This document shows positions 1,766-63,770 of a stretch of 64,000 nucleotides of DNA, piece by piece. Within the stretch, counting starts at the first letter, position 1, and each line of letters starts with the position of its first letter. A program made the position numbers and the translations under genes. Source of the DNA: Eledone cirrhosa (taxonomy: Eukaryota); NCBI GenBank assembly GCA_964016885.1, contig OZ024749.1, positions 39,370,001 to 39,434,000 on the forward strand. Reading direction: 5' to 3'. The notes beneath the pieces are model-generated. The model searched no databases. It was not told where the DNA came from and was given only the letters and a program-made list of their open reading frames with translations.

Positions 1766-1953
1766 ATTTTATAGAAGGAGCTTCTACAGGACTAGTACTG
1801 TTTCATTCAGATGAAATCTTCAGGAAGATTTCACCTGAATGAAACAGTACTAGTCCTGTAGAAGCTCCTTCTATAAAATGAAAAAATTTTACTCTGCCAT
1901 GTATTGAGTACCTTACTTACTGTGGTTATCCCCGACTCAACCCGGGACCTACG
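1766..1953. mobile_element. Asymmetric inverted-repeat PLE-pLTR-like insertion, family A (related copies 6307-6420, 15460-15573, 59480-59628)
   Basis: Arms 1766-1822 and 1825-1878 plus a one-sided tail to 1953, (TA)n on both sides. Contains CTGA(A/T)GA..GAAA-cagtactag-TC; stem I is absent. Confidence 0.75.
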
Positions 1954-3469
1954 TATATATATATATATATATATATATATATATATATCATCATCATCAT
2001 CACTGTTTTACATCCATTCTTCCACGCTAGCATGGGTTAGACAGGTTGTCTTGTTGTGGGCAATGCCAGGTCAAGTAACCATGTCTTGCTCATACAGGAC
2101 TCATTTTGGCTTGGTTTCTACAGCTGGATGCCCATCCTAACACCAACCTCATTTACAGTGAGTAGTGGGTGCTTTTTTACTGTGGCGCCTACACGACCAC
2201 TTTACAGTGTGGACTGGGTGCTTTTTGCTGTGACACCTACACGACCACTTTACAGTGGGAGGGGTGTGGGGGCATATTGTTTATATGCTTCAGCTTGTAC
2301 CCGTGGGAACTTGGGTCTTCTGTATTACTGCACAACGCCAGAGGTCTTGCTCCTATATATATCAGAATGGCAGCAGTAAAAATGAGTTAGACCATTACTC
2401 ACCAGAGTACTCGATACTTGGAGTAGTAGAATAGGTAATATGAAAAATTCGGAGAGTTCGGATCTAGTTGTTGAAACAACAGGAGCTCAGCCGTTAGGGT
2501 CCGGAACTTGTTCATGTATATGAAACCTGGTATGCATAATGATATTCACCATATTCCAGTATCGATAGAGGGTTGGACGCCATGCTTTGCAGCATAGAGT
2601 TACGGCCCTTTATGATCTGAGTTCAAATCCCGCCGAGGCTAACTTAGCCTTTCATCCTTACAGGGTTGATAAAGTAAAGCACCAGTCACACACTGGGGTC
2701 GATTTAATCGACTTTCCCCTCCCCCAAAATTGATGGCCTTGTGCCTATACAAGAAGCCCTTAGTCTATATTTTCTATTGTATTTTCATGGTAAAGGCTTT
2801 ACCTCACATAATTATCTCATATAACATTGAATTTATGAGACTTTGGTATTATTTATTTTGAAAACAATACCTTAACATTGGTATGAGTGGCCAGTTACAG
2901 CTGGTTTGGTCAGAAAGAGGTGAGAGAATTCTAGCTGAATACAGCCGGTTTAAATGCTAAAGGGTTAAATTATGTTCCAAACACCTACTAAGTAATTAGA
3001 AATGTAGCTATATTACTAAATATCTCAAAACTCTTGATTATTTTCGAAAGGATTTGAAAATTATAGGCAGTGTCTTTCATTAAATATATGGTAACGAAAG
3101 GATTAAAGTTGTCAATCCATGTCCTTTCAAATACCAACATTTTTAGGTATTCAAAAAATGTGTTAATGTCGTTGCCCTCAACAACGTCTGACAGAATTCA
3201 AAATCTAGTATCAATAGTCAAAACTAGACTAATCAACATCCACTAGTTTTTGACCTTGTGTACTGTTAATAATCTTTGTCAATAAAATCAATTTTAACAA
3301 CTGATGAATACTAGATGAATACTAAATGCTAATTTAGGGCATTTCTTGGTTTGCTTAAATATATCTACTAAGTTAACTGCTTAACTTAACAAATAACAAC
3401 TACTTTTAATATATTAAAATAATCATCATCATCAGAGCATTATGCCCCTTGGAACATCAAGCATAAGTA

Positions 3470-3775
3470 GTGAAAGAGTCATTCGCTGGGAAGAAAAACT
3501 TAACAACTTCCCAATAGTAACAACTATGGAGCTAAAGTGTGGAAATGCCTAAACAGACTAAGATCTGGTGTTGGACGTACAAAAGTCAATCTTGCAAAAT
3601 GGGGATATTTAAAGGATGTGGATGTTATGTGTGACTGTGGCATCGAACCACAGACCATGCAGCACCTCCTGCTGGAACGCCCCTCCACAGCATTGGACTT
3701 GGCAGAGTTTGAGAAAGACAGCTGTGCCAAGCTTTGTAACTGACACTCTTGTGGACATAACAAGATCATCATCAT
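3470..3775 (+). mobile_element. Non-LTR retrotransposon C-terminal fragment (RTE-X/I-group-like zinc-knuckle end)
   Basis: WKCLNRLRSGVGRTKVNLAKWG...CDCGIEPQTMQHLL. Confidence 0.7.
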
Positions 3776-61569: not shown

Positions 61570-62500
61570 CACGCACACATATATATATACATACATACAT
61601 ATATATATATACACATACATGCATGCATGCATGCATGCATACATACATACATACATACACATACATATATATACATACATATATATACATACATATATAT
61701 ATATACACATACATACATGCATGCATGCATGCATACATACATACATACACATACATACACATACATATATATACATACATATACATACATATATATACAT
61801 ACATATATATATATACATATATATACATACATATATATATATACATATATATATATACATATATATATATATACATATACATATATATACATACACATAT
61901 ATATACATACATATATATACATACATATATATACATACATACATATATACATACATATATACATACATACATATATATATACATACATATATATATACAT
62001 ATATATATACATACATACATATATATATACATATATATATACATACATATATATATACATACATATATATATACATACATATATATATACATACATATAT
62101 ATATACATATATATATACATACATACATATATATATACATACATATATATATACATACATATATATATACATACATATATATATACATACATATATATAT
62201 ACATACATATATATATACATACATATATATATACATACACATATATATACATACACATATATATACATACACATATATATATACATACACATATATATAT
62301 ACATACACATATATATATACATACACATATATATACATATACACATATATATATATACATATACATATATATATACATACATATACATACATATATATAT
62401 ACATACATATACATACATATATATACATATATATATATATATATATATACATATACATACATATATATACATACATATATATATACATATATATATATAT
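61570..62500. repeat. ~0.9-kb compound (TA)/(CATA) microsatellite (similar at 5345-5715, 13515-13730, 15575-15930, 60775-61050)
   Basis: Direct inspection; source of the YI/HT-rich ORFs. Confidence 0.95.
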
Positions 62501-63559
62501 AGCACATTCTTCACAATTTTTTTTATTTCATTTGATTCACATCCCAAATATCAGAAGATCCTTGGCTATATTAACTGAATTCATTGCGAATTTCTAAATA
62601 GAATACTAAAAATACGAAAACCAAACCTTATTTGCTTCAATTAATAATTAATGGAATGATATTTACTTAAGTTGAACTAAATTTGGGATCGGTAATGGCT
62701 TTTCTATTTTTGGTACTACTCGTCTGAGAGAGACAGGCTGGGGGTGTAATTTAGTCTGTTGTGTACATCTCAGTACTATCAGAATCAATGGACCCCAAGA
62801 GTAATAAATAAAACCGTAATTTAGACTTAGTGTGCAATTTACTTATACATTGTTTACTTTTGTTTTTTTACTAACCATTAGGTAGTCTACGCTTCATTGA
62901 ACTGTTTCATAATTTCTAGAAAAGTTAAAACCCTTAAAATACACTTTTTAACTTGTCTGAGCAGAGCAAAAATAACTTAATATCTTATCTGAGCTACCTT
63001 TGAAAAGGAGACTTCAAGTTCAAGTTGCCCCATTTCAGACAAAGTGGAGAGATGATACCTCCTATTTATTTTATTGTACTTAAAAGGATATGAACGACAA
63101 AAGATAATCAGTTTTCTTTACTAATAACTATCATTAATTTCAATAGGGGCGTTTCACTTTAGGTGTACAAAATAAAATTGCAAGGTACCTGCTTTCGCGT
63201 TTGAATTTTTTTAGTCGATAAACTGAAAAATTTTGTGATTCTTTATTTATTTTCGATGTCGACCTTAGTTATTTGTCGCCGACAAATTCACTCAACGAGG
63301 CACCACAGTTGAGTATAAGTTCCAGTAAAGAATCTTGCCTAAGCTGCGCGAAAACTGACACATTTCGCTCAATTCTATTTTATTATCAAGCTTTTCCTTA
63401 ATTACCATGTTGTTGTCTGTCCGGTTATATACCTAAAATGAAACATCCCTATTTAAGTTATTTAGCTTATAATTTATAAGGAATGATTTTACAGTGAAGA
63501 ATACACTTCTACGACTGAAGTGTAAATATCCTGTAAGTTATGATATATATCTATATATA

Positions 63560-63770
63560 TATATTTGAAAAAAGAAAAAAGAATGACTTCACTTGTAGTT
63601 CTAAACAATTTAATTTTATATTATAATTTTACAATTTGGTTAGATCTACAAAACCAAATTGTAAAATTATAATATAAAATTTAATTGTTAGAACTACAAA
63701 TGAAGTCATTCTTTTCCTTGTTTCAAATATACCTAACTGTACCAAGGATTTCACACATTTTCCAATATAT
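63560..63770. mobile_element. Asymmetric inverted-repeat insertion between (TA)n tracts
   Basis: Arms about 63574-63640 and 63652-63717 plus a tail to about 63766. No intact ribozyme core. Confidence 0.65.

What the first reader, a model, noticed from the sequence alone, without database searches (positions are those of the whole stretch)
1766..63770. Swarm of miniature hammerhead-bearing fold-back elements that insert into (TA)n tracts
Seen: at least 15 short (100-280 bp) non-coding inserts from at least six unrelated sequence families lie in or against (TA)n tracts. Many are asymmetric hairpins (two inverted arms plus a one-sided tail). Most contain a complete or partial CUGANGA..GAAA..UH core, and the fold-back axis repeatedly falls at or just 5' of that core (about 1823, 6365, 17427, 17582, 21429, 25723, 50448, 59578, 63645). 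Known: Penelope-like element pLTRs carry minimal type I hammerheads and leave inverted, 5'-truncated insertions. Inference: this is a diverse TA-targeted PLE/retrozyme-like system mobilised by GIY-YIG PLEs such as the one at 11466, with roughly one insert per 4 kb, probably mis-annotated as low complexity.
Basis: partly seen in the sequence, partly recalled or inferred. Interest (0 to 1): 0.8.

Follow-up and report, generated by a model that had tools for sequence, protein, structure and literature searches.

The report
Miniature head-to-head Penelope insertions in TA repeats
These short hairpin-shaped inserts in TA repeats are cut-short, head-to-head copies of the ends of several Penelope-type jumping genes of a known group, and their inner ends pile up at one fixed point per family that is likely the element's transcription start and is not the ribozyme's predicted cut site.

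Summary
The inserts are real. All nine named fold-backs exist and touch (TA)n; about 22 such ends lie in the window. They are not a new retrozyme system. Five of six families tested are the terminal repeats (pLTRs) of their own RT + GIY-YIG Penelope-like elements with Hydra-clade motifs. That clade is already described as hammerhead-bearing and TA-targeting, including one octopus family. The GIY-YIG fragment at 11430 is another lineage.

The claim that the axis is set by the ribozyme fails. Only 4 of 9 axes carry a complete hammerhead, and 6 of 300 arms end at the predicted cut site.

Two patterns were not found in my literature searches. First, inner ends stop at a hard family-specific wall, a ninefold genome-wide drop in one family with at least 17,759 copies. 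The wall has an initiator-like YYA, with a TATA box about 30 nt upstream in three families. Second, 32 of 32 two-armed insertions pair one long with one short arm. Both fit twin priming on one RNA copied to its 5' end. No RNA data could test this. The scan filed a similar, ordinary reading on another genome.

The parts
1768..1953 (+). Family A two-armed insert: short inverted arm 1768-1827 (+3..+65 of the family), tail-bearing arm 1824-1953 (+9..+137), (TA)n on both sides; hammerhead core at 1823 on the minus strand
   Evidence: parent element L170
15440..15572 (+). Family A copy truncated at +29, inside stem III, with a decayed short arm
6308..6420 (+). A2 subfamily fold-back; both core boxes at 6369 but stem I broken
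59438..59627 (-). A-related fold-back with tail; degenerate core
13810..13965 (+). Family B insert: 14-nt short arm, then a tail-bearing arm that starts exactly at the wall (13828); only the GAAA half of the hammerhead
18564..18647 (+). Family B tail-only copy (from +55)
50352..50465 (-). Family B fold-back truncated at +41; no hammerhead core left
25515..25832 (-). Family C two-armed insert; complete type I hammerhead in both arms (25699 minus, 25742 plus); axis about 20-25 nt upstream of the core
17267..17492 (-). C2 subfamily fold-back truncated inside stem II (GAAA half only)
14352..14512 (-). Family D single arm that ends exactly at the wall (+1); hammerhead with CAGAAGA core at 14507
17519..17729 (+). 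Family D two-armed insert (short arm to +2, tail arm from +16)
21270..21499 (-). Family D two-armed insert (tail arm from +2, short arm from +7)
63565..63764 (+). Family E two-armed insert with a tail of about 40 nt; no hammerhead core in this copy; parent ORF not found
29306..29530 (-). Family H insert: short arm 29305-29486 reaches the wall (+3) and holds a complete hammerhead (29405); the opposite arm (about 29487-29530, read by eye) is tail only, so the arms do not overlap
   Evidence: parent ORF in L307 and L304
33137..33274 (-). TA-flanked end with a descriptor-passing hammerhead (33266); family not followed up
57642..57691 (-). Hammerhead with U3-A8 core whose relatives in fetched loci have C3-G8; not beside a TA tract
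11430..12116 (+). 5'-truncated GIY-YIG fragment of a different PLE lineage (CCHH-type); its own hammerhead-like motif lies at about 12719-12753

Best explanation
The inserts are the cut-short ends of at least five autonomous Penelope-like retroelement families with Hydra-clade motifs, sitting head to head in (TA)n, and they likely arise when two reverse-transcriptase molecules prime on one RNA at two fixed sites and copy only as far as an RNA 5' end that is likely the pLTR transcription start. SHOWN: parent RT + endonuclease elements for A, B, C, D and H; (TA)n at the outer ends; two fixed outer ends per family, about 75-95 nt apart in A-D; one long and one short arm per insertion; a hard inner wall per family; varied junctions with microhomology or short inserted pieces. 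FROM THE LITERATURE: a PLE protein nicks and extends both strands, is predicted to be a dimer, starts reverse transcription at two internal sites that define the tail, and does not need hammerhead cleavage (Frangieh 2024). INFERRED: both strands of a TA tract are nicked. One 3' end primes at the distal site and the other at the proximal site. Both cDNAs run toward the RNA 5' end, and the distal one often stalls near the proximal site. The two cDNA 3' ends are joined by microhomology-type repair. Because the start sites lie only 60-250 nt downstream of the pLTR promoter, priming at the first pLTR of an mRNA, or on a transcript from a 3' or solo pLTR, gives a short 'strong-stop-like' product, which explains the swarm. 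The hammerhead is a passenger here.
For: Parents: L170 is pLTR-ORF-3'UTR-pLTR with a period of about 4,250; L223 is a tandem array with an uninterrupted 718-aa ORF and period 3,543; D runs EN-stop-1.1 kb-hammerhead-tail-(TA)n, and in 2 of 30 copies the tail runs on into the RT ORF; C in L151 and L156; H in L307 and L304. Wall: 171 of 345 arms end at -5..+10, and 6 of 345 at -30..-6. Genome-wide family B 19-mers: 41,761 at +24..+42, 24,253 at +2..+20, 2,716 at -22..-4; reversed controls 0. YYA at the wall in 6 of 6 references; TATA-like box at -29 to -31 in 3 of 6, against a background of 0.07-0.16 per family. Pairing: 32 of 39 arm-centred B loci are two-armed and all 32 have one long and one short arm. 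In tail-selected samples the short arm reaches at least 15 nt further 5' than the tail arm in 16 cases against 3 the other way, with 54 level (p = 0.004); a snap-back copy of the tail strand cannot give that. 297 of 345 arm 3' ends abut TA repeats. Papers: PMC8557442, PMC11167929, PMC3846280, PMC2377424.
Against: The wall position was set by eye after seeing the junctions, and the +1 A was chosen within 1-2 nt, so the initiator match is post hoc. D, E and H have no TATA-like box at -33..-27. The E wall is diffuse (9 of 45 arms at -5..+10) and no ORF was found in 4 long E copies. Four of six walls also read YAG, like a splice acceptor, and in D. virilis an intron ends at hammerhead helix I (PMC4209133). 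Later deletions at palindrome centres could mimic unequal arms. The H sample and the arm-centred part of the B sample were selected for sequence near the wall. Clade membership rests on motifs, not on a tree, and the A and B units are longer than the usual <3 kb.
Confidence: 0.7

Rival explanations
1. The short elements are self-propagating non-autonomous units (retrozyme-like or SINE-like) transcribed from their own loci and copied in trans by the PLE protein.
For: Very high copy number (17,759 exact hits of a B tail 33-mer); many copies reach +1 and keep the initiator-like motif; D, E and H lack TATA, so an internal promoter like that of D. virilis Penelope (PMC2377424) could survive in a short copy; non-autonomous PLEs and pLTR-derived retrozymes are known.
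Against: Junctions differ from copy to copy, so the hairpin is not copied as a unit. The commonest variants of short copies also occur in long copies (12-36 long arms per family). Short A, B and C copies lack the TATA box. No tandem arrays of short units bounded by ribozyme cuts were seen in the samples.
Confidence: 0.15
2. The wall is an RNA-processing or structural stop (hammerhead helix I, a 3' splice site, or a nuclease-resistant fold), not a transcription start.
For: In A and D the wall is the first nucleotides of stem I; A, B, D and E walls read YAG; in D. virilis an intron ends at helix I.
Against: The wall is 64-84 nt upstream of the core in C and H and inside loop II in B. No shared upstream exon follows the wall; the junction filler is short and differs among copies. 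6 of 300 arms end at the predicted cut.
Confidence: 0.2
3. Head-to-head hairpins form by self-priming (snap-back) of a single cDNA, as proposed for rotifer PLEs (PMC3846280), with later deletions at the centre.
For: It also predicts one tail per insertion; several junctions are palindromic or microhomologous; 54 of 73 insertions have level arms.
Against: The short arm extends further than the tail arm in 16 cases against 3. Tail arms often stop near the proximal start site (18 of 73 at or beyond 35 nt upstream of it). The window's H insert has non-overlapping arms.
Confidence: 0.25
4. They are MITEs or fold-back DNA transposons with terminal inverted repeats that insert at TA.
For: Inverted arms with fixed outer ends and TA flanks.
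Against: One-sided tail, variable inner truncation, and direct continuity with RT + GIY-YIG ORFs.
Confidence: 0.02

Closest known systems
Hydra clade PLEs, including Hydra-1_Obim of Octopus bimaculoides (Craig et al. 2021, PMC8557442)
   Same: C-terminal GIY-YIG without CCHH, CxCX5C linker, DKT, (TA)n targeting, type I hammerhead near the 3' end, often with an unpaired U on each side of stem II; inverted 5'-truncated copy and one-sided tail
   Different: At least five further families whose hammerheads differ from the listed Hydra-1_oBim motif; units of 3.5-4.25 kb against generally <3 kb; tails of about 75-95 nt against 30-40; RWR in place of RWK; the sections and supplement part I read do not report an inner wall or strict long/short pairing
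Poseidon element of the green anole in vitro (Frangieh et al. 2024, PMC11167929)
   Same: Two internal RT start sites define the tail; both strands are cut and extended; AT-rich target; hammerhead cleavage is not needed
   Different: Different clade; short tail; that work saw no strand difference in start-site use and did not analyse head-to-head products
Adineta vaga Penelope pLTRs (Arkhipova et al. 2013, PMC3846280) and D. virilis Penelope promoter (Schostak et al. 2008, PMC2377424)
   Same: Promoter inside the pLTR (TATA plus TCACT initiator-like motif in Pen2a; initiator plus DPE in D. virilis); inverted pLTR 37 bp shorter than the direct ones
   Different: Few copies there, and self-priming on an antisense template was proposed; the data here favour two primers
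Non-LTR retrozymes of animals (Li, Clavereau and Pollet 2026 preprint 10.64898/2026.07.22.740005)
   Same: Derived from PLE pLTRs and carry type I hammerheads
   Different: Retrozymes are head-to-tail tandem units with a hammerhead in each unit; these inserts are dispersed, head to head and often lack half or all of the ribozyme
Twin priming of L1 and strong-stop DNA of LTR elements (recalled, not from a call)
   Same: Two primers on one RNA giving an inversion; a short cDNA that ends at the RNA 5' end
   Different: In L1 the second primer site is random and the arms do not overlap; here both sites are fixed and the arms usually overlap

Membership tests
EN+ Penelope-like elements | Single ORF with RT and C-terminal GIY-YIG between pLTRs in partial tandem | tested here: met
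   L223 (B) 718-aa ORF in a 3,543-bp tandem; L170 (A), ORF broken by frameshifts; RT and EN motifs read directly; Pfam gave no match above cut-off for these five proteins; 2,155 unnamed homologues at E<=1e-30
EN+ Penelope-like elements | 5' truncation, adjacent inverted copy, one-sided tail | tested here: met
Hydra clade | CxCX5C linker before the endonuclease | tested here: met
   Present in A, B, C, D and H copies
Hydra clade | No CCHH; CxxC and CxH beside the conserved E and N | tested here: met
   Read by eye in A, B, C and D endonucleases
Hydra clade | DKT in place of DKG; RWK motif | tested here: inconclusive
   DKT in A and B, NKT in one D copy; RWR instead of RWK in A, B and D
Hydra clade | Insertion into (TA)n | tested here: met
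   297 of 345 arm ends with one mismatch allowed; a stricter background is 3.6% of window positions
Hydra clade | Canonical hammerhead near the 3' end | tested here: met
   A, C and H have CUGANGA cores; B has the known U3-A8 variant; D has a U4A core, not canonical
Hydra clade | RT phylogeny groups with published Hydra proteins | not tested
Type I hammerhead ribozyme | Stems I-III with covariation around the core | tested here: inconclusive
   Across families the stems differ in sequence but keep pairing. Within 12 A-like sequences 92% of cells pair, with double changes at 2 stem I pairs (covariation score reached by 4 of 500 shuffles), but stems II and III hardly vary. Minimum-energy folds are not more stable than shuffles in 6 of 6, and for A, D and 33266 are not the hammerhead
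Type I hammerhead ribozyme | Self-cleavage | not testable with these tools
   Needs an in vitro assay
Non-LTR retrozymes | Head-to-tail tandem non-coding units with a complete hammerhead in consecutive units | tested here: not met
   Sampled short copies are single or head to head; tandem arrays found are full coding units or short copies separated by TA tracts
Non-LTR retrozymes | RNA ends defined by ribozyme cleavage; circular RNA | tested here: not met
   DNA side only: 6 of 300 arms end within 3 nt of the predicted cut; RNA itself could not be examined
MITE / DNA transposon | Symmetric terminal inverted repeats and a transposase partner | tested here: not met
   One-sided tail and RT + GIY-YIG parents

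The most novel reading that the evidence does not exclude
Most copies of these Hydra-type elements are 'strong-stop' products: one dimeric complex primes both strands of a TA tract at two fixed sites of one RNA and copies to the capped 5' end. The genome would then hold tens of thousands of natural read-outs that map each family's promoter to the nucleotide and explain the head-to-head PLE structure. In family B the promoter sits inside loop II of the hammerhead, so only read-through RNA would be cleavable, which would make the ribozyme a cutter of tandem read-through transcripts.
Probability: 0.45. Interest if true: 0.65.

Novelty: new member of a known kind. Interest (0 to 1): 0.45.

Why it matters
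The elements themselves are of a known kind. The value is mechanistic. How PLEs make tandem and inverted structures is named as an open question in PMC8557442, and self-priming and two-site priming predict different arm statistics. This genome offers very large, young families, with an uninterrupted ORF in family B, in which the two models can be told apart by counting. The wall predicts exact transcription starts that one 5'-end experiment can check. For annotation, these short ends occur about once per 3-4.5 kb in these introns and resemble microRNA hairpins (the top Rfam hit, below threshold, is the family C fold-back) or MITEs.

Tried and rejected
Rfam scan: no hammerhead family among the 150 listed of 232 matches at E<=1; the list is dominated by below-threshold microRNA models on TA/CA repeats. 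RNA search: no RNA holder listed, so nothing can be said on expression. Laying contigs of three coded runs on 1400-2300 gave no piece across the insert and no empty-site evidence. A DNA search with the family B tail found nothing because very common words are skipped; a pattern search found the family. The first family A search included my copy's own junction and so over-sampled it; those 30 loci were left out of the wall and arm counts. Pfam did not recognise the Hydra-type RT or endonuclease. Folding energies do not support the hammerheads. Family E: no ORF motif within about 4.5 kb upstream in 4 long copies, and its core-like motif lacks a clean stem I. CUGAUGA at 18051 lies in another dispersed repeat and does not pass the descriptor; 42355 passes but is probably chance. 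Ribozyme-defined 5' ends were rejected (one search used wrong cut positions for three families and is superseded). A spliced-RNA explanation of the wall was set aside because no shared upstream exon follows it. Five loci were dropped from the arm comparison as duplicates, misaligned or rearranged (L033, L043, L119, L182, L184). Literature searches for strong-stop, twin priming or start-site-limited copies in PLEs returned no paper whose listing states it. The library lacks most subscription papers, including Evgen'ev and Arkhipova 2005 and Arkhipova 2006, and bioRxiv supplements are closed, so this is not proof of absence.
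Full report
SETTING. The window lies in a 3.0-Gb genome of 1,796 contigs and holds exons of a malic enzyme gene.

1. OBSERVATION. Each of the 9 touches a (TA)n tract. Fourteen inserts map to six families and close relatives, which I call A (1768, 15440; relatives 6308, 59438), B (13810, 18564, 50352), C (25515; relative 17267), D (14352, 17519, 21270), E (63565) and H (29306). 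About eight more ends or motifs were seen but not followed. My hammerhead descriptor finds 10 sites against 0.75 +/- 0.9 in 40 shuffles; 3 of them depend on a CAGA core added after seeing family D. Only 4 of the 9 named axes carry a complete motif, and 2 carry none.

2. WHAT THEY ARE. Searches of the window's genome with tail sequence gave 775, 1,511, 974 and 1,194 first-look candidates for A, D, C and E, with 40 scored each. A 33-mer of the B tail has 17,759 exact matches with a control of 0. Long copies lead to coding elements. A: L170 is pLTR, RT, GIY-YIG, 3' UTR, pLTR, (TA)n. B: L223 is a tandem array with a 718-aa uninterrupted ORF. D: endonuclease, stop, 1.1 kb, hammerhead, tail, (TA)n, and 2 of 30 copies run from the tail straight into the RT ORF. 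C: L151 and L156 carry endonuclease (L151 also RT) in the arm opposite a C end; in L151 a TA tract interrupts the 3' UTR, so that link rests on the head-to-head layout and on the second locus. H: L307 and L304. E was not linked in 4 long copies. The proteins show the CxCX5C linker, DKT, CxxC and CxH, and no CCHH, as Craig et al. 2021 describe for the Hydra clade (PMC8557442; I read passages, sections 11, 15 and 20, and part 2 of 59 of the supplement). That supplement lists Hydra-1_Obim from Octopus bimaculoides with (TA)n preference and a hammerhead. The window's own GIY-YIG fragment (11430-12116, Pfam GIY-YIG) has CCHH-type residues and matches the B protein only over 60 aa. It is another lineage.

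3. THE INNER WALL. Using real long copies as references, I mapped the 5' end of 345 arms. 171 end at -5..+10 of a family-specific point and 6 at -30..-6. A, C, D and E samples and 30 B loci were chosen by tail sequence, so they are blind to the 5' end. The H sample and 39 B loci were chosen by sequence near the wall and are biased toward arms that come close to it. A genome-wide count in B confirms the step: 41,761, 24,253 and 2,716 matches for three 19-mers stepping toward and across the wall, a 1.7-fold drop inside and an 8.9-fold drop across. Relative to the first core nucleotide the wall is at -6 (A), -5 (D), -64 (C), -84 (H), inside loop II (B) and downstream of a doubtful core (E). 6 of 300 arms in five families end within 3 nt of the predicted cut, against 106 within -3..+4 of the wall. 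So the ribozyme does not set the axis. All six walls read YYA, and A, B and C have a TATA-like box at -29 to -31, while D, E and H do not. I placed +1 by eye, so this is suggestive only. It agrees with promoters inside pLTRs in D. virilis (PMC2377424, passages) and in A. vaga, where Pen2a has TATA, a TCACT motif and an inverted pLTR 37 bp shorter than the direct ones (PMC3846280, parts 1-4 of 5). No RNA run was available.

4. THE OUTER ENDS AND PAIRING. Short arms end at a fixed internal TA-containing site and long arms about 75-95 nt further in A-D. This matches the two reverse-transcription start sites that define the tail in vitro (PMC11167929, parts 1-2 of 4). In an arm-centred B sample, 32 of 39 loci are two-armed. 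Thirty are strictly tail plus short, one has an internally deleted long arm, and one is a diverged long plus short pair. None has two tails or two short arms. In tail-selected samples 1 of 74 had two tails. The short arm reaches at least 15 nt further toward the wall in 16 insertions, the tail arm in 3, and 54 are level (five loci dropped as listed). A hairpin copied from the tail-primed strand cannot exceed that strand, unless later deletions trimmed it, which I cannot exclude.

5. MECHANISM. Shown: parents, targets, fixed ends, pairing, wall. Inferred: one complex nicks both strands of (TA)n and primes at both start sites of one RNA. The cDNAs run to the RNA 5' end or stall, and they are joined head to head through microhomology with short fillers. 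Because the start sites lie near the pLTR promoter, short promoter-to-tail products dominate. Whether the RNA is the 5' end of an mRNA or a transcript from a 3' or solo pLTR cannot be told from DNA. The commonest variants of short copies also occur in long ones, which gives no sign of self-propagation, though long-copy samples are small.

6. THE RIBOZYMES. A, C and H have canonical cores. Stems differ among families yet pair. Within 12 A-like sequences covariation is limited to stem I, and folding energies are unremarkable. B has the U3-A8 core already known from Schistosoma PLEs (PMC4209133, parts 1-2 of 4) and from other hammerheads (PMC3088659, passages). Its TATA box and wall lie in loop II, so promoter-started RNA would lack half the core. 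D has U4A in the copies listed; the passages I read mention only U4C as tolerated, so D may be inactive, which fits a ribozyme that is dispensable for insertion.

7. COMPARISON AND NOVELTY. Membership: PLE yes; Hydra by motifs, tree not run; retrozyme no (definition from preprint 10.64898/2026.07.22.740005, parts 1 and 3 of 5); MITE no. Very short PLE insertions in microsatellites are known (median 128 bp in Chlamydomonas, PMC9977147, passages). A curation guide also lists inverted pLTRs and 3' extensions (PMC8969392, passages). The fixed wall and the strict pairing were not found in four targeted searches (listings only for most hits). Key reviews of 2005-2006 are not in the library.

8. VERDICT. 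A real feature and new families of a known clade, with two measurable patterns that bear on an open mechanistic question. Interest 0.45.

Noticed in passing
L223 (G000:C1:91472600-91481000): Tandem array of family B units (five matches at a period of about 3,543) with uninterrupted 718-aa ORFs in the two units read; a candidate active source for biochemistry.
   Followed up: partly
window 14507, 17580, 21425 (minus) and family D loci: Hammerhead fold with a U4A core (CAGAAGA) throughout a successful family; activity unknown.
   Followed up: partly
L223:7655-7752 (minus): Family B TATA box and candidate start lie inside loop II of its hammerhead.
   Followed up: partly
window 57642-57691 (minus); L142, L072: One hammerhead family shows C3-G8 in fetched loci and U3-A8 in the window copy.
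   Followed up: no
window 25720-25730 and 29445-29455; families C and H: Both carry a splice-donor-like GGTATGT about 36-45 nt after the wall, so the hammerhead may lie in a retained intron, as introns are known in PLE 5' UTRs.
   Followed up: no
window 11221-11368: Two nested hairpins with C/G runs and a degenerate hammerhead-like motif just upstream of the truncated GIY-YIG fragment; no relative in 645 kb of fetched loci.
   Followed up: partly
window 13359-13515, 28490-28575, 60283-60426, 61052-61170: Further TA-flanked ends with relatives elsewhere in the genome; relatives of 28490 carry a minimal hammerhead.
   Followed up: partly
L103:611-1058: A 27-nt tandem repeat whose units pass the hammerhead descriptor with a U3-A8 core; may be chance or a minimal tandem unit.
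   Followed up: no
L170:2-1168, L152, L155, L157: Different PLE families, including ones with N-terminal or CCHH-type endonucleases not classified here, are stacked in the TA tracts left by earlier insertions.
   Followed up: no
window 35661-36263 and 37360-37725: Exons of a malic enzyme gene (Pfam Malic_M); at least some inserts are probably intronic.
   Followed up: no
window 24241-25302: 33-bp minisatellite of 33 copies next to the family C insert.
   Followed up: no
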